A DNA stretch of 64,000 nucleotides from the NCBI GenBank assembly GCA_036785375.1, contig JAWMAR010002394.1, forward strand, positions 1 to 64,000, read 5' to 3'. The notes under the pieces are model-generated. The model was not told the DNA's origin and made no database searches. It saw nothing but the letters and a program-made list of their open reading frames with translations. The position numbers and the translations under genes were made by a program. Within the stretch, counting starts at the first letter, position 1. The number at the start of each line of letters is the position of its first letter. Below, piece by piece: positions 1-47,315 of this stretch. The stretch is from Leucoraja ocellata. Taxonomy: Eukaryota.

Positions 1-112
1 TCCATCGAAATCACTGACCTCAAAATGAACGATACAGGAAGGTATTACTGCCGAGTGAGTGTTTTCACAGGGGAAACATATAATGGTCACGGCACAGATG
101 TCACGGTCACAC
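1..112 (+). CDS. 3' part of Ig V(J)-type domain exon of receptor gene A (5' part lies outside the window)
   Basis: Frame 1 reads SIEITDLKMNDTGRYYCRVSVFTGETYNGHGTDVTVT: D-x-G-x-Y-Y-C F-strand and J-like GxGT motif. Phase-1 donor C|GTAAGT at 112/113. Near-identical to 30110-30221. Confidence 0.9.
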
Positions 113-569
113 GTAAGTTTACAGAACCTTAACTTTATCTTTACTGTTCTTAACATTCTTAATCCGACTGCACTTGCCTTTGTGTGTCGGAGGGAACTGC
201 AGACACAAAAACTGGAGAAACTCAGCGGGACAGGCAGCATCTCTGGAGAGAAGGAATGTGTGACGTTTTGGGTCGAGACCCTTCTTCAGACTGGTTAGGG
301 ATAAGGGAAACGAGAGATATAGGCGATGATATAGAGAGATATAACGAATGACAGAATGACATATATGCAAAGGGTGTCAGGAGTCAGGACTCAAATTAGT
401 TTTATTGTCATGATTGTCTGAGAAAAGTAACCATGATAAAGGAAACATGCCATTATTCGCTGTTTGTTGTGTGATAACGAGAAGCTGGTGCTACTTGGGT
501 GGGGGTGGGGGGGGGGGGGTGGTGGTGGTGGGGGGGGGGGGGGGGGGGGATAGAGAGAGAGAGAGAGAG

Positions 570-1770: not shown

Positions 1771-2501
1771 AGGAACTCCAGATGCTGGTTTAGACCGAAG
1801 ATAGCTGGAGTAACTCAGCGGGACAGGCAGCATCTCTGGAGAGAAGGAATGGGTGACGTTTCGGGTGGAGACCCATTCATCATCTTGACCATCTTCTGCT
1901 TTGATCTGTCTTTTTCACACCTCACGTGCTCTTTGTACCCTTCCATATCTCTAGTCTCCCTGTCCCCAGACTCTCAGTCTGCGGAGAGGAAGTTGAAACG
2001 CCCAACTCCAGTACCAAGTCTGTTGAGCTTCACCCATGCTCCTCTGGGTAGGTCAGACCCTGGACAGGTTTTGTCTGGTGAACAGATGGAGCTGTGTAAT
2101 GGAGATGAGGTTGCCTTCCACTCCTGTGACCACTTGGTGGCTATCCAGTGTGCTTTTGTCTCCGTTGGCTGGATTGATGCTAGGAGTTGTTTAAGGATGT
2201 TAATTGCCTGTCAGGACGCGCGTCCTTGGGTTGAGAGAGGAAGCAATAACGCCCAGGGGAAACGCAGGCAATATAATGGAGAACGTGCAAACTCCACACA
2301 GACAGACAGCACCCGGGGTCAGGATCGAACCCGCGTTGTCTCACGACATTTAAAAGGCGTCTCGCCAAGCATTTGAAACGCTGAGACATAGAAAGGCCAT
2401 GATCCTAACGCGAGTAAATGGGATTGTGTAGATAGGTGTAATGGATGGCATTGACAGGGTCGGCCGAAAGGCCAGCGCCGAGACTATAATATTATTTCAA
2501 G

Positions 2502-2611
2502 TTGATGAATCGACCATACAATCACCGAATCTGATCATAGTTACTGAAGGCGGGACTGTGCGGATAAACTGTACATTTGTTGGCACCACAATCAGTTCAA
2601 TTGGGCACTAA
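2502..2611 (+). pseudogene. Truncated V-exon fragment broken by a CR1 3' fragment
   Basis: DESTIQSPNLIIVTEGGTVRINCTFVGTTISSI, then LINE sequence and TAA at 2609-2611. Upstream 2260-2500 is homologous to the intron before the V exon at 29898. Confidence 0.85.
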
Positions 2612-4021: not shown

Positions 4022-4179
4022 GCCGGATCTCTGTAGAAATCCCTGCATGGGGATTACGTTGGCAGCTGGTGGTAATGGGAGTGAAACTTGCAACGTTCAT
4101 TGTGATCAACGTTATAATAGTTTTCATCATCCGCTCATGGGAGTCTTGTGGATTTGCCAGCCGGACAAAAGAAGCCTAA
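4022..4179 (+). CDS. Transmembrane + short cytoplasmic exon with TM lysine (activating-type receptor, gene A)
   Basis: Acceptor ttttattccttcAG|GC at 4021/4022 is phase 1, compatible with the V exon ending at 112. Reads RISVEIPAWGLRWQLVVMGVKLATFIVINVIIVFIIRSWESCGFASRTKEA* (Lys codon 4084-4086). Donor G|GTAAGA at 4194/4195 just after the stop. Frame intact in three copies. Confidence 0.8.
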
Positions 4180-10088: not shown

Positions 10089-10246
10089 GCCGGATCCCTG
10101 TAGAAAGCCCTGCATGGGGATTACGTTGGCAGCTGCTGGTAATGGGAGTGAAACTTGCAACGTTCATTGTGATCAACGTTATAATAGTTTTCATCATTCG
10201 CTCATGGGAGTCTTGTGGATTTGCCAGCCGGACAAAAGAAGCCTAA
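10089..10246 (+). CDS. Second copy of TM-Lys exon (no V exon of its own seen upstream)
   Basis: Acceptor tattcctacAG at 10087-10088; RIPVESPAWGLRWQLLVMGVKLATFIVINVIIVFIIRSWESCGFASRTKEA*; donor GTAAGA at 10262. Confidence 0.65.
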
Positions 10247-16037: not shown

Positions 16038-16220
16038 ACCATAAGTGTTGAACTCCCTACATATTTGAATCAACTCATCCAACAGATCAAACCATGAAAA
16101 GCAAACTCATTACTGAATCAACATTAGCTCAGTCAGCTGTGCTGATACTGTTGTGGGCCATTTGGGATAATGTAATTTGTGAAATCTTACACTCATTAAA
16201 ACTCCACATTGCCTTCTTGT
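16038..16220 (+). other. Copy 2 of putative 3'UTR exon
   Basis: Acceptor AG 16036-16037, ATTAAA 16195-16200; near-identical to 5337-5520. Confidence 0.45.
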
Positions 16221-24861: not shown

Positions 24862-27324
24862 ACCCATTCCTTCTCTCCAGAGATGCTGCCTGTCTCGCTG
24901 AGTTACTCCAGCATTTTGTGTCTACCATCCACACTAGTCCCACCTGCCCGAGTTTGCCCCATATCACTCCACACCTGTCCTACCCATGCACCTGTCCAAT
25001 TGTATCTTAAACCTGCGATAGTCCCTGCCTCAACTACCTCCTCTGGTAGCTTGTTCCATAAACCCATCACCCTCTGTGTGAAAATGTTACCCCTCAGTCT
25101 TTTTAGTTTAAGTTTGATATGGTTTAGTTTGGTTTAGTTCAGTTCAGTTCAGGTTGGTTTTGTTCCGTTTAGAATTACAACGTGGAAACAGGCCATTCGG
25201 CCCACCGAGTCCGCGCCGTACAACCATTAGCCGCTCACATTTGTTCTGTGTTCTGTATAGAAACTTACTTAAGGGATTGGACAGGCTAGATGCAGGAAGA
25301 TTGTTCCCGATGGTGGGGAAGTCCAGAACACGGGGTCACAGTTTAAGGAAAAGGGAAAGTCTTTTAGGACCGAGATGAGAAAATGATTGTTTACACAGAG
25401 AGTGGCGAATCTGTGGAACTCTCTGCCACAGAGGGTAGTTGAGGCCAGTTCATTGGCTATATTTAAGAGGGAGTTAGATGTGGCCCTTGTGGCTAAAGGG
25501 ATCAGGGGGTATGGAGAGAAGGCAGGTACAGGATACTGAGTTGAATGATCAGCCATAATCATATTGAATGGCGTCAGTCTCAGTCTCAGTCTACCCCACG
25601 ACAGAAGGGGGAGGAGTTGTACAGTTACATCTCCACAGGGAAGAATGATCTCCAGTGACGTTCTGTGCTGCATCTTGGTGGAACCAGTCTGTTGCCTGCC
25701 CTCCAAGGCCACCTCCCATGAATCCAACTCCGCCCCCAGGACGGAGCCATCTTCCTGGTGAGTTTTAGCTGAAGAAACCCAAGACATGGTGACCACACAG
25801 AATTTGCCCTCGTCACCCAACATGGTTTATGGAAACTAGAATTGTGCCGGTTGCAGATAAGACTGGAGGTTCACGAGACCTCTCTGTTTTTGTAGCTCGG
25901 TGTTTCGCTTCACCCCCTGTAAGAAGTCCAAGGGCTGCTTTAGATCCAACGCTGCAAATTGAGTGGGGGTAAGTACCGGAATATCGAGTTGCCCTCGGGA
26001 GGGCGTTGGGAATATTGTGTGTTTATGTTGTTGGGTCTAACCAGGTTAGTTTAATTTAGAAATACAGTGCTAACGTCCCTACGGGCGGAGAGCACCCGTG
26101 GTCGGGATCGAACCCGGGACTCTGGCGCTGTAAGCGCTGTAAGGCAGCAACTCTGCCGCTGCGCCACCATGATCACCAGTCTAATGCGGTAGAAGACTGA
26201 GTGTTGGTGAATGAGTTACTCTGGAGGGTGTTCATGGATGGAAGGGGAGGGGGAGTGGGGAGAGGAGGAAGGTGGGTGGGGAGAGGTGGAGGCAGAGAAG
26301 GGGAGGGGGGGAGAAAGAGGGGAGAGAGAAGGGAGAGGGAGGAGAGGGGAGACAGGTGGTGAGAGAGGGGGGAGATGGGGGTAGAGAGGGGGCGAGGGAG
26401 GGGAGGGGGAGAGAGAGGAGGGGAAGCGACTGTTCCACGTTATTTATATTTAACTTATCTTGTGTATGTATCGAGGAGTGGGGGAATTGAAGACTGTACG
26501 GAGAAAAAAAAACTCTTAAACAAAGCGGGTTGTTTAAGAAGGAATTGCAGATGCTGTAAAATCGTAGGTGGACAAAAATGCTGGAGAAAGTCAGCGGGTG
26601 CAGCAGCATCTATGGAGCGAAGGAAATAGGCAACGTTTTTGTGTACCTTAAACATAGCGGAGTCAGAGGATATGGGGAGAAGGCAGGAACGGGGTACTCA
26701 CTGATTGGGGACTTTAAACCCCAACTCCGCGAGATATCAAGTTGGTGGACACATTGTGAACCATGTGAATGCAGAAGGACGGTAAATCCAGAGGAACTAA
26801 ACAACTTGGCGTTAACCAGGCTGCAGATGCGGTATCTCAACATCAATTTCCCACACGTCGTTATTCATCACACACTTCTTTTCTTACATCATAATCATAA
26901 AATTTAGGAAGTTTAGTGCATGCTTGTGAGGAAGTGACACTAGCTGTGAGCAATCTTGATGCTTCTATTTTAAATTTCATGCGAAAAGATCAGAATATCT
27001 TTAGCTTGCTTCCTCTTGCTTGAAGTCCACTGTACCCACATGTTGATATGATGATCGGTCCTGTTACTAGGGATACGGGATCCAAGTCTCCGCGTTTGAT
27101 CTAGACCCTGACTGCTGTCTGAATAGAGTCTGCACATCTCCAAATGCACTTCTTGGGGTTACTTGTGTGCTCCAGTATCCTGGTTTGAAGCTAAATGGCT
27201 AGTAATTTTGTCCCAAGTAAATTGGGAACAAAGTAGAGATGGTTCAAAACTTGGAATTCCAAGAGGTCAAAGTCACCAACAACTTCTCCTGCACCATCCA
27301 TATTGGAGCAACGATGAATAGACA

Positions 27325-28435
27325 ACAGACAATAGACAATAGATGCAGGAGTAGGCCATTCGGTCTTTCGAGCCAGCACCGCCATTCAATGTGATCATGG
27401 CTGATCATCTCAAATCAGTAACCCCTTTCTCCCTTCACCCCATATCCCTTCACTCCGCTGTCATTAAGAACTCTATCTCTCTCTCTCATGAAAGCATACA
27501 GAGAATCGGCCTCCGCCGCCTTCTGAGGCAGAAAATTCCTCAGACTCACAACTCTCTGTGTGAAAATGTTTTTCCTCATCTCCGTTCTAAATGGCTTACA
27601 CCTTATTCTTAAACTGGTTCTGAACTCCCCCAACATCTGGAATGTTTCCTGCCTCTAGCGCAGTGGTTCCCAACCTTTTTTTGGCCATGCCCCACCTAAT
27701 CACCTCTAAAATCCTGATGCCCCCCCCCCCCCCCCACCCATGTGGTGATATATAATTCTTATCATTTAAAAAGTGAACTCCGTTTCAGCTGAAGAAGCTT
27801 AAAACGCCAATACCTTGGTTTAAACGAGCTTCAAAAGAACATGGCATCCATGAAAAATAAAAATGAAATAAACAATAGACAGTTAAAGTTCTGAGCAAGA
27901 AATTACTAAAGAAATAGTAAAAAAATAAATAAAACGACAATTTGGACCCAGACCTCCTCAGTCGCGCTCAATTGCCCCCCTTAAAAATCAAATTGCCCCC
28001 CTGTGGGGCGTACGCCCCACGTTGGGAACCACTGCTCTAGCGTGTCCAAACCCTGAATAATCATATATGTTTCAATAAGATTCCCTCTCATCTTTCTAAA
28101 CTCCAGAATGTACAAGTCCAGCCGCTCCATTCTCTCAAGATATGGCAGTCCCGCCATCCCGGGAATTAACCTGGTAAACATACGCTGCACTCCCTCAATA
28201 GTAAGAATATCCGTCCTCAAATTTGGAGACCAAAACTGCACACAATACTCCAGGTGTGGTCTCATTCGGACCCTGTACAACTGCAGAAGGACCGCTTTGC
28301 TCCTTTACTCAACTCCTCTTGTTATAAAGGCCAACATGCCATTCGCTTTCTCCACTGCCTGCTGTACCTGCATGCTTACTTTCATAGACTGATGAACAAG
28401 GAGCCCCAGATCCCATTGTACTTCCCCTTTTCCCA
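27325..28435 (-). mobile_element. CR1 LINE 3' fragment hosting a hAT MITE
   Basis: ORFs 27415-27636 and 27981-28280 RT C-terminus. Confidence 0.85.
27661..28034. mobile_element. Non-autonomous hAT (Charlie-like) MITE
   Basis: TIR CAGTGGTTCCCAAC...GTTGGGAACCACTG; perfect 8-bp TSD CTCTAGCG at 27653-27660 and 28035-28042. Confidence 0.9.
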
Positions 28436-29089
28436 ACAGGGTGGAAGTAGAACCATGAGAGCAGCGGATGGCTCATTATCGCCCCCATCTTACTTATAGA
28501 CCTGCCAATGAGTGGATTATTTGCACGCAAAGAGTTACAAGGATTTGTCATATTTGAGGCAGCTAATGCCCTGTTTCTTCCGGAATAGCGGCCCAGCTTG
28601 TTCCTCCTGAATGGATTTCACAATGTAGCACCCACAATGTTATAACTCCGCCCCGTCCATAGTGCCGGTGGAACCAAACGGGTCAGACGGCATCTCCGGA
28701 GGTCAAAACAATGAACCGCAGGTGCTGGTTAATGCACAAGGGGACATAACGTGATGGAGTAACTTAACAGGTCAGGCAGCGCCTCTGGAGATGGGAACGA
28801 GGAACTGCAATGCTGGTTGATGCACAAGAAAGAGGACTTAATGTGCTGGAGTAACTCCACCGGTCAGGCAGCGTCTCTGGAGGTGGGAACAAGGAACTGC
28901 AGAGCCTGGTGGATGCACAACAGAACAAAAAGTACTGGAATAGATCAGCGCGTCAAGAAGCATCTCTGGAGAACATGGACAGGCGACGTTTCGGGTCTGG
29001 ATCTCTCTTCAGACGGATTTCACATTTCTTCCGCAGATGCTGCCTGACCTGTTTTTGTGTTTGTTTCCGCCTCAGGTAGTCGTTCAAAG

Positions 29090-29127
29090 ATGCAGTGGAG
29101 TGTGGTCGCTTGGTCCGTTCTGCTATT
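29090..29127 (+). CDS. Signal-peptide exon of receptor gene B (runs into N-gap)
   Basis: Acceptor ttgtttccgcctcAG at 29074-29075; aagATG at 29090; MQWSVVAWSVLL hydrophobic leader ~800 bp upstream of the V exon. Donor presumably in gap 29128-29317. Confidence 0.7.
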
Positions 29128-30221: not shown

Positions 30222-30279
30222 GTAAGTTTGCAGAACCTTAACTTTATCTTTACGGGGGATAGAGAGAGAGAGAGAGAGG

Positions 30280-30810: not shown

Positions 30811-31199
30811 GAGGAACTCCAGATGCTGGTTTAGACCGAAGATAGCTGGAGTAACTCAGCGGGACAGGCAGCATCTCTGGAGAGAAGGAATGGGTGACGT
30901 TTCGGGTGGAGACCCATTCATCATCTTCAGCATCTTCTGCTTTGATCTGTCTTTTTCACACGTCACGTGCTCTTTGTACCCTTCCATATCTCTAGTCTTC
31001 CTCTCACAAGACTCTCAGTCTGGAGAGAAGTCCCATCTTCAGACACAACCAAACTCACCGCACCCGTAGCAAAGAGCACGTGTCCCCAGGTGGGGAGGGC
31101 AGACCCTGGACACGTGCTCTTTGTACGGGTGACGTTTCGGGTTGTGTCTGAAGAGGGGACCCTTCTTTAGGCTGAGAGTCAGGAGAGAGGGATATGGAA

Positions 31200-31765
31200 G
31201 GCCCTAGTGAGACCACACCTGGAGTAATGTGTGCAGTTTTGGTCCCCTCATTTGAAGAAGGACATTCTTGCTATTGAGGGAGTGCAGCGTAAGTTTACAA
31301 GGTTAATTCCCGGGATGGCGGGACTGTCATATGTTGAGAAAATGGAGCGGCTGTGCTCGTATAGTCTGGAATTTCGAACGATGAGAGGGTATCGTATTGA
31401 AACATGTAAGATCATTAAGGGTTTCGACACGCTAGAGGCAGGAAACATGTTCCCGATGTTGGGGGGGGGGGGGGGGGGGGGGGTCCAAAACCAGGGGCCA
31501 CACAGTTTAAGAATAAGGGGTAAGCCATTTAGAACTGAGATGAGGAAACACGTTTTCACATAGAGAGTTGTGAGTCTGTGGAATTTTCTGCCTCAGAGGG
31601 CGGTGGATGCAGGTTCTCTGGATACTTTCAAGAGAGAGCTAGATAAGGCTCTTAAATATAGCGGAGTTAGGGGATATGGGGAGAAGGCAGGAACGGGGAT
31701 GTCGGTGCTGGCTCGTAGGACCGAATGGCCTACTCCTACACCTATTGTTTATTGTCTATTGTCTA
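31200..31765 (+). mobile_element. CR1 LINE 3' fragment
   Basis: ORF 31231-31563 RT C-terminus. Confidence 0.85.
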
Positions 31766-32310
31766 TGGGACAACGAGCATGTGAAGTGTGAAAACGACAG
31801 ATCAATGCAGAGGATACCAGGACGATGATGTTGGCTGAGGGGAAGGTGACAAGGGGGCATGCAATCCATACAGTTTATCAAGGGGGGGGGGGGCAGTGAA
31901 ACGTGGGGGAACTAGGATGGGAGCGACAGAGAGAGCGGGGATGCAAGAGTTATTTGGAATTAGAGCAGTCAATATTCATACCGCTGGGGTGTAACACTCC
32001 AGAGACGTACAGGTGTGTAGGTTAATCGGCTTGGTGTAAATGTAAATTGTCCCTAGTGTGTGTAGGATGGTGTCAGTGTGAGGGGATCGCTGGTCGGCAC
32101 GGACCCGGTGGGCCGAAGGGCCTGTTTCCGCGCTGTATCTCTAAACTAAAGCTGAACAAACAAAAAACACCCCGATGCCTTCTCTCCATAACACCCGACA
32201 CCTGTACTGATCATGAATCAATCAATCTCCGACTTAAAACATGTATAGATTGGCTTGGCCTGTACATCACATGTTGCTGTGCCTTTTACTGTATTTTTGT
32301 TTCTCAACAG

Positions 32311-32436
32311 CGCCTGTTCCGAGCGGCAAGGGTGGAACTTATAACATTCCGCTTGTGTGTGGACTCTCGGGTGTGGCGTTGCTCGGGATGGTACTGATTC
32401 TCATCATTTACCTGCGACGCCGCGGTCGATCTCCAG
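32311..32436 (+). CDS. Stalk + uncharged transmembrane exon of gene B
   Basis: Acceptor ttttgtttctcaacAG; 126 bp, phase 1-1. Reads PPVPSGKGGTYNIPLVCGLSGVALLGMVLILIIYLRRRGRSP with a basic stop-transfer segment. Donor CAG|GTAACA. Confidence 0.88.
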
Positions 32437-32629
32437 GTAACAACATCAAGTCAAGTCAAGTTTATTTGTCACATACAAGATGCGCAGTGAAATGAAAGTG
32501 GTGGATTGTGGAAAACAACAGCACAACAGAACAGAATAGAACAGAACCAGTTGTTACATTTTAGGGGATCCATTAAAAAAAAGACACAACACAACTGTAA
32601 ATTAGTTAATTAGACCCTCGTGAGGTCAG

Positions 32630-32925
32630 CGTTTACAGTCCTGAAGGCCTGTGGGATGAAACTCCGTCTCTGGATCTGCACCTGCTGGTGTATAGTTCCT
32701 GCAGGGGGGAGAGTATAGTTCCCATGGTGCGTTCGGCCGAACGCACTACTCTCTGCAGAGCCTTCCTGTCCTGGGCAGAGCTGTTCACAACCCAGATTGT
32801 GATGTTACCGGACAAGATGCTTTCTACAGCCCCAGAATAGAAGCACTGAAGGATCCTCAGAGAGACTCTGAAATTCAGCTGCCTGTGGTGTTAAAGGCGC
32901 TGCCTTGCCTTGCTCACCAGTGCTG
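32630..32925 (-). mobile_element. Rex1/Babar-like LINE fragment
   Basis: SGNITIW..NSSAQDRKALQRVVRSAE. Related fragment at 34385-34700 (LSGCITAWFGNSSIQDRK). Confidence 0.65.
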
Positions 32926-34947
32926 TATGGAAGCAATGTCCTCTCTCCTTGGTAGGCGAACGCAAGCGAGAACTCAGAAGGAATTCCTCGGACGATTAGG
33001 TCTCCTGGGCTCTAAAGGTCCTGTCCATGTGTTAGTTTAGTTTATTTTGGAGATACAGCGCGGAAACAGGCCCTTCGGCCCAGCGACTCCGCACCGACCA
33101 GCGACGCCTGCACCTCCTCCAACCTCGTCTGCTGCATCCGCTGTTCCAGGTGCAAACTTGGTCCAAGCTGAACACCTCCGCTCAGCCAGTGTTAACCAAC
33201 CTGATCGCCCTGTTGCTCAGCGCTTCAACTCCCCCTCCCATTCCCACACTGACCTTTTGTGTCCTGGGCCTCCTCTATTGTCAGAGTGAGGCCCAGCGCA
33301 AATTGGAGGAACAACACCTCATATTTCTCTTGGGTAGTTTACACCCCATGGTATGAACATTGACTTCTCTAATTTTAGACAGTCCTTGTTTTCTCCCTCC
33401 CCCTCCCCTTCCCAGTTCTCCCGCAGCCCACTGTCTCCGCCTACTTCCTTTCGTTTTCCCGCCCCCATCCTACCACCCCCCCCCCCCCCTAGCCCGACAT
33501 CAGTCTGAAGAAGCATCTCGACCCGAAACGCCGCCTGTTCCTTCTCTCCATAGCTGCTGCCTCACCCGCTGAGTTTCACCAGCATTTCTTGTCCACCTTC
33601 GATTGTTCCAGCATCTTCAGTTCTTTCTTAGACAACTGACCTACAGACCTGTAGATCTTTGGAGTGTGGGAGGAAACCGAAGATCTCGAGGAAACCCCAC
33701 GCGGGTCACGGGGAGCACGTACAAACTCCGTGTCAGACAGCACCCGTAGCCGGGATCGAACCCGGGTCTCCAGCGCTCCAGAGATGCTGCCTGACACTCT
33801 GTTATTCTAGCATTTTGTGCTTTCTTCAAAAAAACTAAATGCATTGCACAGGTTTTGGAAATTATTTCGTGCTAATCAGAAGCGAGGAAGATTCTTGTTC
33901 ATGCATGCAAAATAGCAGCAAGGTCTTCGCCTATTTATTGGTCCCTAAAACTATCCCAGGAAGCTTCTGACAAGGGAATACGAGGGTGGTCATGTTCCGA
34001 ATGTGGAGGGAGAAACATAACACGGGGGATTATTAAATGTGCAGCAAATACAAGTTTATTATCTCAATGTGTGGGAAGGAACTGGAGAAAGTGGTTGAGA
34101 CACAAAATGCTGGAGTAACTCAGCGGGACAGGCAGCATCTCTGGAGGGAAGGAACGGATGACGTTTCGGGTCGAGACTCATCATCAGACTGAGTGTCAGG
34201 GGAGAGGGAGATACAGAGATAAGAAAATATAAGGAGTGAGAACGAGAACGAGATACCTTTCCCTTGATCTCCACCCCTTTTGATATCTCGTTCTCACACC
34301 TTACACTTCCTTATCTCTGTATCTCGCTCAAGTCAAGTCAAGTCAAGTCAAGTCAAGAGAGTTTATTGTCATGTACCCCAGATAGGACAATGAAATTCTT
34401 GCTTGGGACTAGGGTGCGAGTGGTCTTGCCGAGGCAGCGTGAGGTATAAATGGAGTCAATAGGAAGGAGGTTGGTTCGTGTGATGGTCTGGGCTTCGTCC
34501 ACAATTAAATGCCATTCTTTGCGGTCTTGGATGGAGCTGTTCCCAAACCAAGCTGTGATGCATCCTGATAAAAATGCTTTCCATGGTGCATCTGTAGAAC
34601 TTGGTGAGAGTTGTAGCAGACTCGCCAAAATTCCTAAGGCTTCCAAGGAAGTAGAGGCGTTGGTGTCCCGACGAAATGTCTGGAGACATGCGGCCAAACG
34701 TGAGATTCATCATTGCTGAAAACATCAGCTTGTTTCGGTGCTGTGTGAGTCTATATTAAACACAGAATTGTACAGAGAAAATATAATTTGTAACAGCAAG
34801 GTTATGTTAATGAAGATTAAAGTTATGCTAATGAGCGAACTATATTCTCATTAGCCACATCCTCTATTGGATGAAATCGAATTTTATTATCGGTAGTTAT
34901 TTTGTTCCGGGGCTTGAAATAAGTAACTTGTTTATAATGTATTACAG

Positions 34948-34979
34948 ATAAAGGAACCGGAACAGAAGATGAGGCTACG
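34948..34979 (+). CDS. 32-bp cytoplasmic micro-exon of gene B
   Basis: Acceptor tgtattacAG, donor ACG|GTATGT. Phase 1 to 0 exactly bridges the TM exon and last exon; DKGTGTEDEAT. Confidence 0.7.
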
Positions 34980-35059
34980 GTATGTAGTTAATTAACCTTT
35001 AGATGTTCCCTCTGACTTGATCAGTGGTTATTTGCCATTTTGTGTTTCTTTGTGAATTA

Positions 35060-35750
35060 AATAGACAAAAGGTACAGGATGAGGCCATTCGGAATTTCGA
35101 GCCAGTACCGCCATTCAATGTGATCGTGGCTGATCATCCCAATCAGTACCCCGTTCCTGCCTTCTCCCCATATCCCCTGACTCCGCTGTCTTTAAGAGCC
35201 CTATCCAGCTCTCTCTTGAAAGTATCCAGAGAACCGGCCTCTGAGGCAGAGAATGCCACAGATTCACAACTCTCTGTGAGAATACGTGTTTCCTCGTCTC
35301 CGTTCTAAATGGCCGACCCCTTATTCTTAAACTGTGGTCCCTGGTTCTGGACTCCCCCAACATCGGGAACATGCTTTCCTGCCTCTAGCGTGTCCAAACC
35401 ATTAACAATCTTATATGTTTCAATAAGATCCCCTCTCATCCTTCTAAACTCCAGAGTATACAAGCCCAGCCGCTCCATTCTCTCAGGATAAGACAGTCCC
35501 GCCATCCCGGGAATGAACCTTGTAAAAGTCTGTGGAATATTCTGGCTCAGATGCCGGTGGAGGCCGGTTCTCTGGAAACTTTCAAGAGAGAGCTAGATAG
35601 TGCTCTTGAAGATAGCGGAGTCTGGGGATATGGGGAGAAGGCAGGAACGGGGTACTGATTGTGGATGATCAGCCGTGATCACATTGAATGGCGGTGCTGG
35701 CTCGAGGGACCGAATGGCCTACTCCTGCACCTATTGTCTATTGTCTATGC
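35060..35750. mobile_element. Two CR1 3' fragments in opposite orientation
   Basis: Minus-strand RT C-terminus 35060-35525 abutting a plus-strand 3' end 35528-35750. Confidence 0.75.
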
Positions 35751-36794
35751 ATACGCCTCTTAAACGCCATTGACGTAATGCCTCCACAACCACCGATGAC
35801 AATTTTGTTCCAGACCCCAACCAACATCCGTNNNNNNNNNNNNNNNNNNNNNNNNNNNNNNNNNNNNNNNNNNNNNNNNNNNNNNNNNNNNNNNNNNNNN
35901 NNNNNNNNNNNNNNNNNNNNNNNNNNNNNNNNNNNNNNNNNNNNNNNNNNNNNNNNNNNNNNNNNNNNNNNNNNNNNNNNNNNNNNNNNNNNNNNNNNNN
36001 NNNNNNNNNNNNNNNNNNNNNNNNNNNNNNNNNNNNNNNNNNNNNNNNNNNNNNNNNNNNNNNNNNNNCCCCCCTAGTGTTCGCATTTCGACCCAATCAA
36101 TGTTGAATTAATTTATTTTCACGGTGACCAAACTAGAATAGGACACTTCCCTTCAGGCTATTGCTTCGGGATAAATATTGTATTTTCAATTAAAGAGATT
36201 TTCAAGCGAGTTGCTGGAAAATGAATCATTTATCGCAAGCATTTGCTCAGCCCCGGTATAATCTGCTCAACATTCTATGGTGTTACTAACATTGGAATCA
36301 ACAGGTGACGGTGGATATATTAATATCCTAACTTAATGACGAACCTAAAACAATGAAGTTGCTTTCATCCCGCGGCTAGATTCGCAGCGCAGCTGTTATA
36401 CATGTTAGGTTGCTGAAACCGCTTCATGAAAGAGGCCCATTGACCAGAAACTAACACAAAGCCCGAAACCTCACATCGTTCTGAATTTCCGAAGATGGAT
36501 AAGTTACTGGACAATTTCCAATCTTGTGTAGGTTTCAAATCTTGTAACAAATGACTTGTGACATTCCAGGAACTAACACAAAGCTCATACCTCAAAGCAA
36601 TAGACAATAGACAATAGGTGCAGGAGTAGGCCATTCGGCCCTTCGAGCCAGCACCGCCATTCAATGTGATCATGGCTGATCATCCACAATCAGTATCCCG
36701 TTCCTGCCTTCTCCCCATATCCCCTGACTCCGTTGTGAACTTTAGAAGCGGGATAAGTTACCGGACAATTTCAATCGTATGTAGGTTTCAAATA

Positions 36795-37265
36795 GAGTCA
36801 TAGAGTGATACAGCGTGGAAACAGGCCCTTCGGCCCAACTTGCCCACACCGGCCAACAATGTCCCAGTTACACTAGTCCCACCTGCCTGCACTTGGTCCA
36901 TATCCCTCCAAACCTGTCCTATCCATGTACATGTCTAACTGTTTCTTAAATGTTGGGATAGGCCCAGCCTCAACCACCTCCTCTGGCAGCTTGTTCCATT
37001 CACCCACCATCCTCTGTGTCGAAAAGTTACTCCTCAGATTCCTATTTAATCTTTTCCCCTTCACCTTGAACAACCGTCCTCTGGTCCTCGGTTCCCCTAC
37101 TCTGGGCAAGAGACTCTGTGCATCTACCCGATCTATTCCTCTCGTGGTTTTGTACACCTCTATAAGATCACCCCCTCATCCTACTACGCTCCAAGGAATA
37201 GAGACCCAGCCTGCTCAACCTCTCCCTGTAGCTCACACCCTCTAGTCCTGGAAACATCCGTGTAA
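36795..37265 (-). mobile_element. CR1-like LINE 3' fragment (different subfamily)
   Basis: ORF 36873-37157 RGIDRVDAQSLLPR...EGYGPSAGRWD. Confidence 0.8.
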
Positions 37266-37673
37266 AGTCTTGCAACAAATAATCCAGAATCGTAAGGGCC
37301 TGTCCCACTTTACGAGGCAATTCACGAATTCTCCCGAGTTTGAATTCTCCCGAGTTTTCCCCTTAATTCAAACTCGCAGACTGTTCGTAACGGGTCCGTA
37401 GATATATCGTAGCACCTCGTTATGCCAGACGCAGGTCCTCGGGCATAAGTCGGGACGTTTACGGGACGCCTGATATAAAATGTCCACGAGTAAAGAAATA
37501 GTCGGGAGGATGCCCCGAGCACCTACGGCAGGTTTACGATATATCTACGTACTCCTACGGCCTCCTACGGACCCGTTACGATCTTTGGGCTTTAGAAGAG
37601 AGACGAGATGCTGGACAATTTCCAAACTTGTTTAGATTTCAAATGTTGTAACAAATATTCTGTTACATTCCAG

Positions 37674-37959
37674 GAAAATGACACATCGAAAAATATAATC
37701 TATGCTGACCTGAATATCAAAAAGTTGAACAGTAATCACCGTTCGGGTCAAGATGCCAGAGGGAATGGGGCTCGGGTCAAAAACCCCGGCGGGGCCGGAC
37801 CTCTGTCCGAGGCAGGTGGAAGGGAAGACCCGGTTCAGAAATCCCGCTCAGACGGACAATCCAGCATCGAACAAGCAGAAGAAGGATCGCATAAGAAATG
37901 AACAACAGGTTGTGTACGCAACCGTGAATGCTCAGCGTCCACCAGTTCCCCAACACTGA
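37674..37959 (+). CDS. Terminal cytoplasmic exon of gene B with ITIM(s); apparent +1 frameshift between motifs
   Basis: Acceptor gttacattccAG|GAA, phase 0. ENDTSKNIIYADLNIKK (ITIM 37695-37712), stop ending at 37901. The +1 frame, open 37729-37959, ends RNEQQVVYATVNAQRPPVPQH* (ITIM 37909-37926). Confidence 0.82.
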
Positions 37960-38743
37960 ACATTGGGAATGAGAGGACAATACTAGGCGGCGGCGTTCTC
38001 TTAGATTAGTTCAGTAACGCGGAAACAGGCCCTTCGGCCACCCGAGTCCGCGCCGACCAGCGCTACTAGCCCTATCCTACACACATAAGGGACAATTTAC
38101 AATTTTTGCCGAAGCCAAATTAAACCACGAGCCCGAACGTCTTTGGAGTGTGGGAGGAAACCGGAGCGCCCGGGGAAAACCCACGCGGGTCACGCGGAGA
38201 ACCTAAAAACTCCGTACAGACCGCACCCGTAGTCAGGATGGAACCCGCTAGCCTTGTTCCATGTACCAGCCAATTAAATATAACATTTCCAAGTTTGCGG
38301 ATGACACAAAGCTGGGTGGCAGTGTGAACTGTGGAACAGGATGCTATGAGGCTGCAGGGTGACTTGGGTAGGTTGGGTGAGTGGGTAATGCATGGCAGAT
38401 GCAGTAAAATGTCGGTTATAAATGTAGCATTGATGCCGTATAAAGGGCCGAATGGCCTACTCCTGCACCTATATTCTATGTTGCTATGTTTTATAATTAA
38501 TTCCAACAGCTTTGGAGCAGTCTAATAGTTATTTCTGGAAGACTTTCATTTTAATAAGACACGAGCGCCATTGCATTCGATGAAATTTACTAACAAATGA
38601 CCATTCGTGTAAATCTCGATGGATATATTACCTATGCTACTTGTGTGAGGGATTTTGAAGGACAGAGAGATATTATGACATAAGTATGGTTGTTATACAC
38701 AAACCAATTCAGTGCTGCCTGTGGTTTAAACATTCGATATTTC

Positions 38744-38749
38744 AATAAA
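38744..38749 (+). promoter_or_regulatory. Candidate polyadenylation signal of gene B
   Basis: AATAAA in non-repeat AT-rich sequence ~800 bp after the stop. Confidence 0.4.
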
Positions 38750-39003
38750 GTTTTGGAATGATATCACACCGAGTATTTAATATCGACGTCTGATTTCCTT
38801 CCGCCTTTACGCCAATTGACTCCAACATTCTCCCCGTGACCGCGTGAGTTTCTCCGAGATCTTCTGTTTCCCTCCCATACTCCACGGATGTACAGGTATG
38901 TAGGTTAATTGGCTTGTAGTATGTGTGAATTGTCCCTGGTGTGTGTGTGTGGTCATATTGAATGTCGGTGCTGGCCTCGAAGGGCGAATGGCCTACTCCT
39001 GCC

Positions 39004-42000
39004 TAAAGATCCTAGAGGAGCAAGATAGACCACTCCTCGAAAAACGCGTAGTATGACGTGTGTGATCGTGGACGCCATTTTTCGAGGCATTTATTGGGTT
39101 CCCCACACTGTCATGGCGTCCTTATCTAAATTTCATCTCACTGCTCTGCTATCAAGTATTCTAATCGTAAATCTAAACCACCCGACCTGTCATTTTTAGG
39201 TTCCCCAATAAAAAAGAAAGGTGAGAAAATATTTTTATTATTTTCAGTCGATATTCTGTCGTGAAAATGTTATTTTCTGTTCTCCCATCAACGGCCATTG
39301 GGAAAATGGGTTTGTCGGTACATTAGAAAGTTATTAGACTTATTTTTATAGTTCTTTACTCACCACAATAATAAAGACAATTTTAACACTTCTGTACGTT
39401 TTTGGTTTTGTTCTTGTAAGGGATTGGTCTCCACAATATGGCCCGCGGACACATCAGCTCCAGTGACCAGGAGATTTTTCGAGCTCAGATTCAAGTGCGA
39501 GAATGGGCGGCTGTTACCCATTATATTCCTCGAACATAGGGACATAGCAAACAACACTCACATACATACAAGACATCACAAGCAAAGATCACAAGCGCGC
39601 CGTGAAGAAGGGTGCAATCAAATATTATATAACTCTGCTCTATCATCTTTGGGTGCAATGGTGGGTCGGGGGGTTCGGTGGCGGCGGCCGCAATCAAGAT
39701 ACTAGTGGAGCTCTGCTCTATAATCTTTGGTCGGAATGGGACGGCTGCGCGTTATAATGTGCTATCGTTCCACTCTCCCTCTCCCCCTTCTCCCTCTCCC
39801 CTTCTCCTCCCCCCTTCTCCTGTCCCCCCCCCCTTTCCCCTTCTCCCTCCCCTTCTCCCTCTCCCCTTCTCCCTCTCCCCCTTCTCCCTCTCCCCCTTCT
39901 CCCTCTCTTCTCTCGANNNNNNNNNNNNNNNNNNNNNNNNNNNNNNNNNNNNNNNNNNNNNNNNNNNNNNNNNNNNNNNNNNNNNNNNNNNNNNNNNNNN
40001 NNNNNNNNNNNNNNNNNNNNNNNNNNNNNNNNNNNNNNNNNNNNNNNNNNCCTCTTCGTGAGAGGTGGCAGCTCTGCTATGCCTTGGGTCCAAAAGAGGA
40101 TAGATAGAAAATACTTAATGGGCTTTGTAAGAAGATTTTAATAAGCTCTTCTACATTTAAGGTAAATTGACATATAGATGGCAAAACGCATTTTCAATAT
40201 ACAGGTCTCCACACAACTGAAAACAATTGCATTAAGTGATATATCATCCATTGTCCAGGCAAGTAGCACTAGTTACAATAAACTTCCTACATATTCCAGG
40301 AATTCTTATCATAAAAATGGGAGAGGCTTAAATGCATTGTAAAATCATAAATCCATGTTGACTTGGACTAATCCTTTTACAGCTATCCAAATGCCCCATT
40401 ATTACATCTTGAATAATTGACTCCAGCATCTTTCACACCACCAAAGTCAGGCTAACTGGTCTGTAATTCCCCAATTTCTCTCTCGCTCCTTTCTTGAAAA
40501 GTGGGATAGCATTAGCTATCCTCCAATCTCACAGGAACTGGTCGTAAATCTATTGATCGTTGGAAAATAATAGAAACATAGAAACAAGAAATTGGGTGCA
40601 GGAGTAGGCCATTCGGCCCTTCGAGCCTACACCGCCATTCAATATGATCATGGCTGATCATCCAACTCAGTATCCCGTACCTGCCTTCTCTCCATACCCC
40701 TGATCCCCTTAGCCACAAGGGCCACATCTAAACTCACTCTTAAATATAGCCAATGAACTGGCCTCGACTACCCTCTGCGGCAGAGAGTTCCAGAGATTCA
40801 CCACTCTCTGTGTGAAAAAGGTTCTTCTCATCTCGGTTTTAAAGGATTTCCCCCTTATCCTTAAGCTGTGACCCCTTGTCCTGGACTTCCCCAACATCGG
40901 GAGAAATCTTCCTGCATCTAGTCTGTCCAACCCCTTAAGAATTTTGTAAGTTTCTATAAGATCCCCTCTCAATCTCCTAAATTCTGGAGAGTATAAACCA
41001 AGTGTATCCAGTCTTTCTTCATAAGACAGTCCTGACATCCCAGGAATCAGTCTGGTGAACCTCCTCTGCACCCCTCTATGGCAATAATGTCCTTCCTCAG
41101 ATTTGGAGGACCAAAACTGTACGCAATACTCCAGGTGTGGTCTCACCAAGACCCTGTACAACTGCAGTAGAAACTCTCTGCTCCTATACTCAAGTCCTTT
41201 CGCTATGAAAGCTAACATACCATTCGCTTTCTTCACTGCCTGCTGCACCTGCACGCCTACTTTCAATGACTGGTGTACAATGACATAGAAAAAAAAACAT
41301 AGAAACATAGAAAGTAGGTGCGAGAGTAGACCACCAGGTCCGTCGAGCCCGCACCGCCATTCGCTCATGGCTGAACACTAAACAGACACACTTACCCACA
41401 AACAGTAGACACAAGACACAGAACACAAGACACTACCCTCCCCTTTATACCGCTATCACCCCTCTCCACCCAAGAACCTCGTGATCTCCTGGGGGAGGCA
41501 AAAAACCGGATAAAAACCCAGGTCCAATTCGGGAAAAAAATCCGGGAAATTCCTCTCCGACCCCAATCCAGGCGATCGACACTTGTCCAGGAGATCACTC
41601 AGGTCTTACTATACTAACCATACCTAGGTCCATTATCCCTGCCCTCTCCCCCGTAGCCCCTTATCCCCTTGGCAGCTAAAAAACCATCTATTTTAGTCTT
41701 AAATATATTTAAAGTTTCTGCTTCCACTGCTCCCTGGGGCAGTGAATTCCATAAATTAACCACCCTCTGGGTGAAGAAGTTCTTCCTCATCTCAGTTTTA
41801 AAAGAGCCCCCTCTTATTCTGCAACTATGTCCCTAGTTCTAGTTTCCCCGATCATTGGGAACATCCTCGGTGCATCCACCCGATCAAGGCCCCTCACGAT
41901 CTTATATGTTTCAATGAGGTCGCCTCTCATTCTTCTAAACTCCAAAGAGTAGAGTTCCAGCCTACTTAACCTTTCCTCATATGTCAATCCCCTCATTGCA

Positions 42001-43270
42001 GGAATTAATCTGTAAACCTTCGCTGCACTGCCTCCAGGGCTAGTACATCCTTTCTTAAGTATGGACCCCAGAACTGTACATAGTATTCCAAATGTGGTCT
42101 CACTAAATGACACCCAGGTCTCGCTGCATCTCCCCTTTTCCTAGTCGGCCGCCATTTAGATAATAGTCTGCTTTCCTGTTTTTGCCACCAAAATGGATAA
42201 CCTCACATTTATCCACATTATACTGCATCTGCCAAACATTTGCCACTCACCCAGCCTATCCAAGTCACCTTGCAGTCTCCTATGCATCCTCCTCACAGCT
42301 AACACTGCCCCCCAGCTTAGTGTCATCCGCAAACTTGGAGATATTGCCTTCAATTCCCTCATCCAGATCATTAATATATATTGTAAATAGCTGGGGTCCC
42401 AGCACTGAGCCTTGCGGTACCCCACTAGTCACTGCCTGCCTAATGAAGAACTCAACCATATATGGTCACTCTAGCCAAGGGGGCACGTACAACAAGATTG
42501 CTAACTAACCCTTCCTCATTACTCAATACCCAGTCTAAAATAGCCTGCTCTCTCGTTGGTTCCTCTACATGTGAATCATATGTATAAATATATATGCATG
42601 TATGTGTATATATATATGTATATGTGTGTATATATGTATGTATATATATGTTTATATGTGTGTATGTATGCATATAAATGTATCCATATGNNNNNNNNNN
42701 NNNNNNNNNNNNNNNNNNNNNNNNNNNNNNNNNNNNNNNNNNNNNNNNNNNNNNNNNNNNNNNNNNNNNNNNNNNNNNNNNNNNNNNNNNNNNNNNNNNN
42801 NNNNNNNNNNNNNNNNNNNNNNNNNNNNNNNNNNNNNNNNNCCTTTATGGTTTATGTATATCATCTTACAAGACAAATAAATTAATAGTGATTATTTAAA
42901 TCAAATTTGCTTCTGATCCATGAGAATCAACTTAACTATCTCTAACTTGCCTCTCACACACAGACACACATTCATATAAATATATATAATATGTATACGT
43001 AAATTAATTTTGTACAGTGTGTGTTAAAGCAATACAATGCAAGGGAAACTACGCAAAGGAGGGGCTGTTCCCGCTACAGATACTCGAGGATCTTTGCTTT
43101 GGATCAAAGATTATAGCGGAGCTCTAAAATCTTTGCTTTGGATCACAGCGGGTGGCATACCGGAAGTCGCGTGGCGCATTGAAAATGGCGGCCGTGACGT
43201 TCCGTCACGTACTACACGCCAGTCCATTGGATTCGAAGGAGTGGTCTATCTTGCTCCTCTAGGATCTTTG
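39004..43270. mobile_element. Non-autonomous TIR DNA transposon with 8-bp TSD (hAT or P superfamily), carrying nested CR1s
   Basis: TIR (T/C)AAAGATCCTAGAGGAGCAAGATAGACCACTCC at both ends. TSD CTCCTGCC at 38996-39003 and 43271-43278. Splits a CR1 3' tail. Confidence 0.8.
40570..42570 (-). mobile_element. CR1 fragment with a second CR1 subfamily nested at ~41286-42105
   Basis: RT ORFs 40709-41368, 41814-42113, 42156-42425; TSD AATGACA at 41279-41285 and 42106-42112. Confidence 0.8.
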
Positions 43271-43544
43271 CTCCTGCCCTATTTTTCTACGTGTCTATGT
43301 TTTTCTATGTGTAGGATGGGATGGTGTTAATGTGTGCGGGTATCGCTGGTCGGCATATGTGGGTCAAAGGCATTTTTCCGCGCTGTATCTCTAAACTAAA
43401 CAAAACTAAACTAAACTAAACTAAACGAAACTAAACTAAACTAAACTGAATTAAACTAAACTAAACTAAACGAAACTAAACTAAACTAAACACAAGACGT
43501 GATTAATTTACTACTTAGTCAGCGTTGAAGGTAAATTAAGATTT

Positions 43545-43807
43545 AGTTTAGAGACACAGCGCGGAAACAGGCCCTTCGGCCCACCGGGTCCGCGCCGACC
43601 AGCGATCCCCGCACACTAACACTATCCTACACCCACTAGGGACAATTTTCACATTTACCCCAAGCCAATTTATCAATAAACCTGCACGCCTTTGGAGTGT
43701 GGGAGGAAACCGAATTTCTCGGAGAAAATCAACGCAGGTCACGGGGAGAAGGGGCAAACCTCCGTACAGACAGCACCCCGTAGTCGGGATCGAACCCGGG
43801 TCTCTGG
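43545..43807 (-). mobile_element. V-SINE copy (5' end in gap)
   Basis: Reverse complement has GGTTCGATCCCGACTACGG, the V-domain core and an actaa tail. Other copies near 29510-29725, 33640-33780, 38005-38250. Confidence 0.75.
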
Positions 43808-45342
43808 NNNNNNNNNNNNNNNNNNNNNNNNNNNNNNNNNNNNNNNNNNNNNNNNNNNNNNNNNNNNNNNNNNNNNNNNNNNNNNNNNNNNNNNNNNNNN
43901 NNNNNNNNNNNNNNNNNNNNNNNNNNNNNNNNNNNNNNNNNNNNNNNNNNNNNNNNNNNNNNNNNNNNNNNNNNNNNNNNNNNNNNNNNNNNNNNNNNNN
44001 NNNNNNNGTGGTTGTTCAGGATAATAGATCGTCTGATCACAGCTGGACAAGCGTGTGGCATCATGTTTCAGCAGTGTGTCTCAGTCTTTGATCGCTTGAT
44101 CTAACAGAGACGGAGCCATGATGTTGATGAATGAAGATATATTGGCAACATAATCCAGTGTGATGGGATTATCACCCTCGTCAGTAAACTGTGGTCTGAG
44201 CGGCTAATACCAGCATTGGGTTGCCAAGTGAAAGACTCCATATGTTGAGTCCACGTGATGGGGTGATGTGTGGCCCTCAACCAAACCACCTGGTCACAAC
44301 ATTCCTACATTGACAGAAACACCACTCTGGTCAACTCAAACATAGCCCCTCATTGAATGATCCAGCATGGAAACAGGCCCTTCGGCCCAACTAGCCCAAA
44401 ACGGCCAACATGCCCCATCTACACTTCATCTAAATATAGAATGCTGGAGTGACTCAGCGGGTCAGGCAGCATCTGTGGAGAACATGGATAGGTGACGTTT
44501 CACAGAGTGCTGGAGTAACTCAGCGGGTCAGCAGCATCTGTGGAGAACATGGATAGGTGACGTTTCACAGAGTGCTGGAGTAACTCAGCGGGTCAGGCAG
44601 CATCTGTGGAGCTAAGGAAATAGGCAACGTTTCGGGTCGAAACCCTTCCGGGTTTCGGCCCGAAACGTTGCCTATTTCCTGAAGGGTTTTGGCCCGAAAC
44701 GTTGCTATTTCCTTCGCTCCATAGATGCTGCTGCACCATAACTCAGCAGGTCAGGCAACATCTGTGGAGAACATGGATAGGTGACGTTTCACAGAGTGCT
44801 GGAGTAACTCAGCGGGTCAGGCAGCATCTGCTGGAGAGAATGGATGGTGACGTTTCGGGTGGAGACCCATTCATCATCTTGAGCATCTTCTGCTTTGATC
44901 TGTCTTTTTCACACCTCGCGTGCTCTTTGTACCCTTCCATATCTCTAGTCTTCCTCTCCCCAGACTCTCAGTCTGCGGAGAGGAAGTTGAAGCGCCCAAC
45001 TCCAGTACCAAGTCTGTTGAGCTTCACCCACGCTCCTCTGGGGAGGTCAGACCATGGACAGGTTTGATCTGGTGAACAGATGGAGCTGTGTAATGGAGAT
45101 CAGGTTGCCTTCCACTCCTGTGACCACTTGGTGGCTATCCAGTATGCTTTTGTCTCCGTTGGCTGGATGGATGCTAGGAGTTGTTTAGGGATGTTAATTG
45201 CCTGTCAGGACGCGCGTCCTTGGGTTGAGAGAGGAAGCAAGAACGCCCAGGGGAAACGCAGGCAATATAATGGAGAACGTGCAAACTCCACACAGACAGA
45301 CAGCACCCGGGGCCAGCGCCGAGACTATAATATGTTTTCAAG

Positions 45343-45440
45343 TTGATGAATCGATCATACAATCACCGAATCAGATCATAGTTACTGAAGGCGGGACTGT
45401 GCCGCTAAACTGTGCATTTGTTAGCAACACAGTCAGTTAA
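45343..45440 (+). pseudogene. Truncated V-exon fragment, copy 2
   Basis: DESIIQSPNQIIVTEGGTVPLNCAFVSNTVS*, then the same CR1 junction as at ~2603. Confidence 0.85.
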
Positions 45441-47157: not shown

Positions 47158-47315
47158 GTCGGATCCCTGTAGAAAGCCCTGCATGGGGATTACGTTGGCA
47201 GCTGGTGGTAATGGGAGTGAAACTTGCAACGTTCATTGTGATCAACGTTATAATAGTTTTCATCATCCGCTCATGGGAGTCTTGTGGATTTGCCAGCCCG
47301 ACAAAAGAAGCCTAA
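47158..47315 (+). CDS. Third copy of TM-Lys exon
   Basis: Acceptor tattccttcAG 47156-47157; RIPVESPAWGLRWQLVVMGVKLATFIVINVIIVFIIRSWESCGFASPTKEA*; donor GTAAGA at 47331. Confidence 0.7.

What the first reader, a model, noticed from the sequence alone, without database searches (positions are those of the whole stretch)
30845..44980. Inhibitory cassette is bracketed by a ~180-bp direct repeat; gene A looks like the recombinant lacking it
Seen: 1-1981 matches 30110-31021 (apart from insertions) and 1805 onward matches 44800 onward. The overlap (1805-1981, 30845-31021, 44800-44975) shares the idiosyncratic junction acccattcatcatctt..catcttctgctttgatctg. Gene A therefore equals V-B plus intron joined directly to the downstream activating module. 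Inference: unequal crossover in this intron can swap signalling tails under one ectodomain, a mechanism for generating activating/inhibitory pairs.
Basis: partly seen in the sequence, partly recalled or inferred. Interest (0 to 1): 0.72.

Follow-up and report, generated by a model that had tools for sequence, protein, structure and literature searches.

The report
Skate NKp30-like receptor with borrowed ectodomain
In a cluster of NKp30-like immune receptor genes from a skate-like fish, the one inhibitory gene likely took its front half from its activating neighbours, a known way of making paired receptors, while the 'cassette between two repeats' is likely an assembly mis-join.

Summary
The repeat is real: its junction motif occurs at exactly 4 sites in the 3.4-Gb genome (three in the window, one on C742). 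The locus is a cluster of NKp30/NCR3-like V genes with 12 lysine-TM (activating-type) exons and one ITIM tail. Gene A is not a B x C recombinant: 17 of 25 other V exons are closer to it than V-B, it keeps DNA that B and C have each lost, and a fourth gene has the same V-intron-repeat layout. Directly behind the repeat, gene B keeps a 21-bp remnant of the activating-type intron inside a palindromic scar, so B is likely the chimera. The 850 bp before the 44800 copy match an intron of an unrelated CaM-kinase-I gene, begin at a run of N and end in letters alternating between both sources: likely a mis-join. Both tails have orthologues in stingrays, so crossover here did not create them. Ectodomain exchange in paired receptors is known (FCGR2C, SIGLEC5/14, NKG2); this scan noted a similar case in a shark. 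Reads did not settle either junction.

The parts
1..114 (+). 3' part of a V exon of gene A, cut by the contig start
   Evidence: translation and GT donor; window = C2394:1-64000; 92.1% to V-B, 97.4% to V at C2394:73338
1804..1981 (+). repeat copy A (SINE-like head plus private junction and inverted SINE-like piece)
   Evidence: the label SINE is recalled, not from a library
1982..2503 (+). activating-type intron behind the repeat; from 1993 also found before the last V of genes at C2394:97096 and 116425, which lack the repeat
2504..2592 (+). remnant of the last V exon of gene A: acceptor region and 3' part deleted, same deletions as at 45345-45431
4022..4179 (+). TM exon with lysine (…MGVKLATF…) and short tail, activating type, gene A
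   Evidence: matches TM of P0001, P0021, P0025, P0026 above all 300 shuffles
10089..10246 (+). second lysine-TM exon without its own V exon, in a tandem duplicate that starts in the 66-bp array at 9613
25580..29127 (+). upstream region and leader exon (ATG 29090, end hidden by N) of gene B, in pieces 88-92% identical to the upstream region of the C742/C3415 gene
29898..30221 (+). V exon of gene B, intact, VJ-type V-set domain
   Evidence: profile of the family hits human NKp30 as best single domain
30845..31021 (+). repeat copy B; end of high identity to the activating family
31022..31199 (+). palindromic junction scar; contains a 21-mer of the activating-type intron at 31092-31112, at nearly the same distance from the repeat as in A, plus short pieces of the repeat in both orientations
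   Evidence: unique in the genome apart from SINE-like parts
32311..32436 (+). uncharged TM exon of the inhibitory gene, single copy
34948..34979 (+). short cytoplasmic exon
   Evidence: in-frame splice sites; not shown by RNA
37674..37959 (+). last exon, single copy: ITIM IIYADL in frame; conserved second motif VVYATV in another frame
43808..44007 (.). run of 200 N; mask or assembly gap cannot be told apart in the window
   Evidence: runs of exactly 200 N also at C2394:111543 and three places on C742
44008..44856 (-). copy (96.6% overall; 5 substitutions in about 420 unique bases) of an intron of a CaM-kinase-I-type gene on contig C4841
44798..44975 (+). repeat copy C; 44798-44845 alternates between kinase-intron array letters and repeat letters, 44846-44975 is clean
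45345..45431 (+). V exon remnant of module C
47158..47315 (+). lysine-TM exon of module C; no leader or intact V exon of its own in the assembly

Best explanation
The ~180-bp repeat is a piece of common repetitive DNA with a private junction that sits in an intron of four NKp30-like genes, and it likely marks the end of the stretch by which the single inhibitory gene B took its promoter, leader and V exon from the activating family, while the copy at 44800 is likely a mis-joined piece of another activating gene and not the right bracket of a cassette. Shown: the family layout (leader, one to three V exons, lysine-TM), the single ITIM tail, the four repeat copies, the remnant of activating-type intron behind B's repeat, the foreign origin of 44008-44856, and the age of both tails. 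Inferred: a break about 90 bp behind the repeat of an A/C742-type gene was repaired onto a related repeat in the intron of the old inhibitory gene (unequal crossover or long conversion with template switching), which left the palindromic scar; the product would be an inhibitory receptor whose V domain is 79-86% identical to those of its activating neighbours and would bind similar ligands. Gene A is an ordinary activating member whose last V exon is dead and would be skipped.
For: Polarity: V-intron-repeat-post-repeat intron occurs in A and on C742; the post-repeat intron leads to a V and a lysine-TM in two more genes. B holds the 21-mer of that intron 70 bases behind the repeat (65 in A); with up to 2 mismatches it occurs at 6 places in 534,543 fetched bases, B and the five post-repeat introns; local score reached by 0 of 2000 shuffles. 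A is not derived from B or C: V fragment closer to 17 of 25 other V exons; left intron 3.7% from B versus 2.2-3.4% from three others; 2612-3020 is 5.4% from C, the farthest of 10; TM block 3.2% from C versus 2.3% from the gene at 108 kb; A keeps 145-544 (lost in B) and 2323-2469 (lost in C) as outgroup genes do, and shares an insertion at about 951 with the gene at 68 kb and with C3415 that B lacks. 44008-44856 matches only C4841, between two kinase exons, starts at the N run and ends in alternating letters. Tails are old: B's tail matches inhibitory proteins of Narcine, Hemitrygon, Hypanus and Heterodontus above all 300 shuffles and none of the four activating ones; the lysine-TM shows the reverse. 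V-B is 79-86% identical to V domains of activating genes here and 42-50% to those four inhibitory relatives. A search with the Narcine inhibitory protein found no other close V exon for the tail (150 of 177 candidates scored).
Against: No read spans either junction: the laid contigs and RNA were swamped by repeats and listed no splice joint. The left arm of B's scar (31022-31090) itself looks like a mixture of the activating-type intron and the reverse complement of the right arm, the same kind of pattern that I read as an artefact at 44800, so B's junction may be mis-assembled too. A and C share two derived deletions in the dead V exon, so they are sister modules, and in 1626-1803 A is closer to B (2.2%, 4 of 178) than to C742 (4.8%): an old crossover between ancestors of B and C, later blurred by conversion, is not strictly excluded. 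The tree of the right-hand blocks places A beside C only weakly (59/69) and the V tree is poorly resolved, so donor and order of events are not fixed by trees. The reverse flow (front half of the inhibitory gene copied onto activating modules) is hard to exclude, because the two genes at 97 and 116 kb have the post-repeat intron without the repeat. B's last exon is frameshifted, so the receptor may be truncated.
Confidence: 0.6

Rival explanations
1. Both junctions are assembly errors: B's front half is really an activating gene (perhaps the allele of module C), and the 14-kb inhibitory piece was joined to it at a similar repeat.
For: Mixed letters in 31022-31090; only 10 of 25 V exons read through, the others have small indels or stops; C3415 and C742 are collinear over about 75 kb at 91-98%, so both haplotypes appear to be in the assembly; on C742 the same gene stops at a 200-N run and unrelated DNA follows, while C3415 goes on into V and TM exons.
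Against: The junction lies far from any N run; B and C differ at 5 of 130 bases in the repeat core, so they are not one copy; no other V exon for the ITIM tail was found, and relatives have leader-V-TM-ITIM proteins; the TM exon lies 2.1 kb behind V-B, a usual distance in this family.
Confidence: 0.2
2. The assembly is right: a piece of kinase intron really was inserted before module C by recombination between related repeats, leaving an orphan activating module 16 kb behind V-B that could serve as an alternative tail by splicing or by looping out the 14 kb.
For: V-B ends in phase 1 and the lysine-TM exon at 47158 starts in phase 1; module C has no leader or intact V in the assembly; the kinase piece differs from C4841 by 5 substitutions in about 420 unique bases, so it is not an exact copy; the N run may be a mask and not a gap.
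Against: One crossover gives one switch of source; 44817-44850 switches about four times and holds both alternative letters at one site. The foreign piece begins exactly at the N run, and 42842-43807 does not continue the C4841 match. 1.2% lies within the 0.9-3.0% seen between the apparent haplotypes C3415 and C742.
Confidence: 0.1
3. One reading: B-cassette-C is the ancestral layout and gene A arose from it by unequal crossover between the two repeats.
For: A matches B on the left and C on the right with the repeat as overlap; the junction motif is private to this family; A and C share derived deletions; A is closest to B in 1626-1803.
Against: A keeps ancestral DNA lost in B and in C and carries an insertion shared with other genes; its V is closer to 17 of 25 others; distances to B and C are no smaller than to other paralogues; B has the remnant of activating-type intron behind its repeat; the DNA left of copy C is unrelated to the cassette.
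Confidence: 0.08

Closest known systems
Cartilaginous-fish NCR3 (NKp30)-like multigene family
   Same: Single-exon VJ-type V domain; closest relatives are batoid and shark proteins, three of eight named 'natural cytotoxicity triggering receptor 3-like' by NCBI; human NKp30 is the best single-domain hit of the family profile, E 8e-16. Inhibitory and lysine-TM forms have neighbouring identifiers in Hypanus (LOC132394821/2) and Hemitrygon.
   Different: Here the activating genes are expanded with two or three tandem V exons, and the inhibitory V is 79-86% identical to them; in the stingrays the inhibitory and activating V domains are 41-63% identical. The shark NCR3 paper (Kinlein et al. 2021) was seen only as a reference title; it is not held.
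FCGR2C (unequal crossover of FCGR2A and FCGR2B)
   Same: A gene with the front of one paralogue and the signalling tail of another (PMC6786274, passages).
   Different: There the product is activating and lies at the junction of an 82-kb duplication of more than 98% identity; here the likely product is the inhibitory gene, about 3-4% from its donors, with a repeat-associated scar.
Ligand-binding-domain homogenisation of paired receptors (NKG2A/C/E, PIR; SIGLEC5/14, SIGLEC11/16)
   Different: Those are mammalian, expressed and functionally tested; here it is a cartilaginous fish, the tract includes at least 3.5 kb of upstream DNA, and expression, ligand and polymorphism are untested.

Membership tests
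NCR3/NKp30-like receptors | V-set domain with J-like G strand in one exon | tested here: met
   Pfam V-set above cut-off; one 324-nt exon ending in GHGTDVTV
NCR3/NKp30-like receptors | NKp30 is the closest characterised relative | tested here: met
   profile search: four NKp30 chains at ranks 3, 4, 6, 7, ahead of all single TCR, Ig and SIRP domains; the single sequence alone did not list NKp30 among the 60 shown of 278
NCR3/NKp30-like receptors | charged residue in the TM of activating forms | tested here: met
   lysine in 12 TM exons, conserved in P0001, P0021, P0025, P0026; human NKp30 has arginine (recalled)
NCR3/NKp30-like receptors | location in the MHC or an MHC paralogon | tested here: inconclusive
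   26 ORFs from the C742 and C3415 flanks gave only retroelement-type or coiled-coil domains, no marker gene; only 160 of 713 kb of C742 were fetched
NCR3/NKp30-like receptors | binding to B7-H6 and expression on NK-like cells | not testable with these tools
   no assay possible; RNA run gave only a few reads on the V exon
Paired activating/inhibitory receptors with homogenised ectodomains | closely related ectodomains with opposite signalling parts in one cluster | tested here: met
   V-B 79-86% to activating V domains; ITIM tail versus lysine-TM; rests on B's junction being real
Paired activating/inhibitory receptors with homogenised ectodomains | tails older than the ectodomain similarity | tested here: met
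   both tails have relatives in stingrays while V domains are only 39-55% identical to theirs
Paired activating/inhibitory receptors with homogenised ectodomains | both partners expressed and signalling in opposite directions | tested here: inconclusive
   no splice joint listed; last exon of B frameshifted
Deletion-fusion allele by unequal crossover (FCGR2C or SIGLEC14/5 type), for gene A | left part closest to one parent, right part closest to the other, with a switch in the repeat | tested here: not met
Deletion-fusion allele by unequal crossover (FCGR2C or SIGLEC14/5 type), for gene A | both parents lie in direct orientation on one continuous molecule | tested here: inconclusive
   a run of N and 850 bp of foreign DNA lie between them; no spanning read

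The most novel reading that the evidence does not exclude
The assembly is right, and one V exon of a skate NKp30-like gene sits ahead of two complete tails: an ITIM tail and, 16 kb on, an orphan lysine-TM tail. Splicing, or crossover between the two repeats that loops out the 14 kb, would flip the same ectodomain from inhibitory to activating, as a switch that is still polymorphic.
Probability: 0.1. Interest if true: 0.65.

Novelty: new member of a known kind. Interest (0 to 1): 0.33.

Why it matters
If B is real, it extends ectodomain exchange between paired receptors, described in mammals, to an NKp30-like cluster of a batoid, and it keeps a readable breakpoint scar at a repeat, which is seldom seen. 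It suggests that the same pressure to keep inhibitory and activating receptors on one ligand acts in the oldest jawed lineage. The headline claim (an excisable cassette, gene A as its product) likely rests on a mis-join, so the finding is also a caution about reading tandem immune clusters from an assembly that keeps both haplotypes. Two library searches plus two narrower ones listed no paper on skate NKp30-like paired genes, but the three key papers on shark NKp30 are not held, so absence from print is not shown.

Tried and rejected
Reads: the look-up of sequencing runs listed no RNA holder and no run with half of the words (best 0.41). One lay on 28900-38200 (4 of 24 listed runs) was swamped by repeats, listed no exon-exon joint and no piece across 31022-31199; it showed only that two DNA runs hold the inhibitory exons at single-copy-like depth. 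Protein atlas: no result. Synteny: 40 and then 14 ORFs of 506 were scanned against Pfam; only retroelement-type, coiled-coil and two kinase hits. Trees of V exons and of the right-hand intron blocks (9 rows; A2, the gene at 83 kb and C3415 left out because they lack a block) were too weak to name a donor; no clade test was run. Rejected: C as the true continuation of the C742 gene (about 8 substitutions in 245 shared bases, read); B and C as one copy (5 of 130 differ); the palindrome at 31022-31199 as a repeat family (no full-length second copy among 40 scored of 89 candidates); SIRP, TCR or Ig as closest family (lower scores). The TM comparison was run in the wrong frame and was repeated. No structure or complex was predicted, as it would not bear on the junctions. 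Papers not held: PMC4594805, PMC3709836, PMC8273117.
Full report
Observation. The junction motif has 3 exact matches in the window and none in 100 shuffles. In the whole genome a 35-place form has 4 exact matches: the three in the window and C742:189912. The repeat is made of a very common element (1371 candidates), which I call SINE-like from recall; the junction in its middle is private to these four copies.

The locus. The window is the first 64 kb of contig C2394 (139 kb). The exon at 29898-30221 encodes a V-set domain. Relatives of it lie on five contigs: 25 near-complete V exons and 3 fragments, with 12 TM exons that carry a lysine and 1 fragment of the intron behind them. The usual gene is leader, two or three V exons, lysine-TM. 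The uncharged TM exon at 32311 and the ITIM exon at 37674 are each found once in the genome. The nearest protein is a V plus lysine-TM protein of the skate Rhinoraja (71-73%); next come ray and shark proteins at 44-52%, three of them named NCR3-like. A profile of 11 sequences finds human NKp30 as the best single domain in the PDB (E 8e-16). So this is an NKp30-like cluster of a skate-like fish; MHC linkage and ligand are untested.

Both tails are old. B's spliced tail matches the tails of four inhibitory relatives (Narcine, Hemitrygon, Hypanus, Heterodontus) above all 300 shuffles and none of the four activating ones. The lysine-TM exon shows the reverse. In Hypanus and Hemitrygon the two forms have neighbouring identifiers. 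V-B, however, is 79-86% identical to V domains of activating genes in this genome and 42-50% to the four inhibitory relatives. Old tails under a young shared ectodomain is the pattern described for NKG2 and PIR (PMC3210942, passages) and SIGLEC5/14 (PMC4042635, passages).

Is gene A the recombinant? A crossover product should be closest to B on the left and to C on the right. Its V fragment is 92.1% identical to V-B, and 17 of the 25 other V exons are closer. Left intron 620-941: 3.7% from B, 2.2-3.4% from the three other copies. Repeat core: 5.4% from B, 3.1% from C and from the C742 copy. 1993-2322: 3.6% from C, 2.4-2.7% from two other genes. 2612-3020: C is the farthest of 10 (5.4%). Only 1626-1803 is closest to B (4 of 178 differences against 8 of 165 for C742). 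A keeps 145-544, which B has lost, and 2323-2469, which C has lost; outgroup genes keep both; and A shares an insertion at about 951 with the gene at 68 kb and with C3415, absent from B and C742. A recent B x C origin of A is excluded; an old one is not strictly excluded but needs several extra events.

Direction. The layout V-intron-repeat-post-repeat intron is also on C742, where it stops at a 200-N run. Behind B's repeat lies a 180-bp imperfect palindrome (self score 202 against at most 42 in 200 shuffles) built from pieces of the repeat in both orientations. In its loop is a 21-mer of the activating-type intron, 70 bases behind the repeat (65 in A); with up to 2 mismatches it occurs only in B and in the five post-repeat introns among 534,543 bases. 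So B's front half once continued like A (inference). B's match to the C742/C3415 gene reaches, in pieces, 3.5 kb upstream of the leader. The simplest reading is that an A/C742-type front half was joined to the old inhibitory tail close behind the repeat. A search with the Narcine inhibitory protein found no other close V exon that could serve the tail. Against this, the left arm of the scar mixes letters of two sources, which polishing of collapsed paralogues could also produce.

The right-hand bracket. 44010-44350 matches one other place, C4841:15002-15341 (99%). The match runs from 44008, the first base after the N run, to 44856 and lies between two kinase exons on C4841 whose best PDB matches are CaM kinase I proteins; that exon is single-copy. 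42842-43807 does not continue the match. At 44817-44850 the letters alternate between the 66-bp array of the kinase intron and the repeat, with both alternative letters present at one site. One crossover would give one switch; a consensus of two overlapping reads gives such a mixture (inference). Whether the N run is a gap or a mask cannot be told in the window; runs of exactly 200 N occur at four places outside it, and at one of them, on C742, the gene breaks off while the collinear contig C3415 goes on into V and TM exons. The assembly appears to keep both haplotypes, and only 10 of 25 V exons read through. So copy C is likely the start of a contig piece that has lost its own V exon, and the 14 kb 'cassette' is the 3' half of gene B plus flank.

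Reads. No listed run held half of the words and none was on record as an RNA holder. Laying four runs on 28900-38200 gave no exon joint and no piece across the scar. One contig covers 37552-37864 with 14 gap letters and another covers 37664-37834 with none, which hints that the frameshift in the last exon is a short deletion in this copy; its place was not shown.

Comparison and verdict. Swapping tails under one ectodomain by unequal crossover is the known origin of FCGR2C (PMC6786274, passages). PMC10751288 and PMC12227049 (passages) mention NKp30/NCR3 as an MHC-linked VJ gene of cartilaginous fish; PMC11599192 (passages) concerns the CD28 family and did not bear; PMC12272517 and PMC10450919 gave only the reference title of the shark NCR3 paper. 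No supplements were opened. Verdict: observation confirmed, interpretation partly supported and likely reversed, the bracket likely an artefact. New member of a known kind, interest 0.33.

Noticed in passing
window 37674-37959: The last exon of the inhibitory gene is frameshifted: the conserved second motif VVYATV lies in another frame than IIYADL. One public contig has 14 gap letters in 37552-37864, which hints at a short deletion in this copy.
   Followed up: partly
window 9613-22829: Tandem copy of the lysine-TM module without a V exon, starting in the 66-bp array and split by two long LINE-like insertions (about 11717-15800 and 16581-19679); a similar truncated copy is at C3751:8854-11769.
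   Followed up: partly
G000:C2394:68323-121899; C3751; C4569; C3415: Activating-type genes carry two or three tandem V exons, whereas the skate and stingray relatives found have one V; the V exons differ most in the loops after the first cysteine and before the G strand.
   Followed up: partly
G000:C3415:4307-78549 and C742:101890-189671: Collinear over about 75 kb at 91-98%: apparent haplotypes, yet their first genes differ in the intron (C3415 has the insertion and lacks the repeat; C742 the reverse). C742 has three copies of an 8.6-kb unit where C3415 has about one and a half. Both have two leader exons before the first V.
   Followed up: partly
G000:C4841: 39-kb contig with a CaM-kinase-I-type gene; a 330-420-bp composite of the 66-bp array occurs four times in it at 97-98% identity.
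   Followed up: partly
window 57673-58208: Perfect tandem array of an 82-bp unit, about 6.5 copies, at the 5' end of a long LINE-like element (58209-62482) whose 3' part is 98.6% identical to 16581-19679.
   Followed up: no
window 41295-42106: 812-bp element 98.4% identical to two places on C3751 (52169-52980, 63730-64542): a young mobile copy inserted inside an older LINE-like piece.
   Followed up: no
L027:8462-9999 and L028:3-1580 (C742 about 208-212 kb): ORFs with RT-RNase H, integrase zinc finger and integrase core domains: an LTR retrotransposon; observed only.
   Followed up: no
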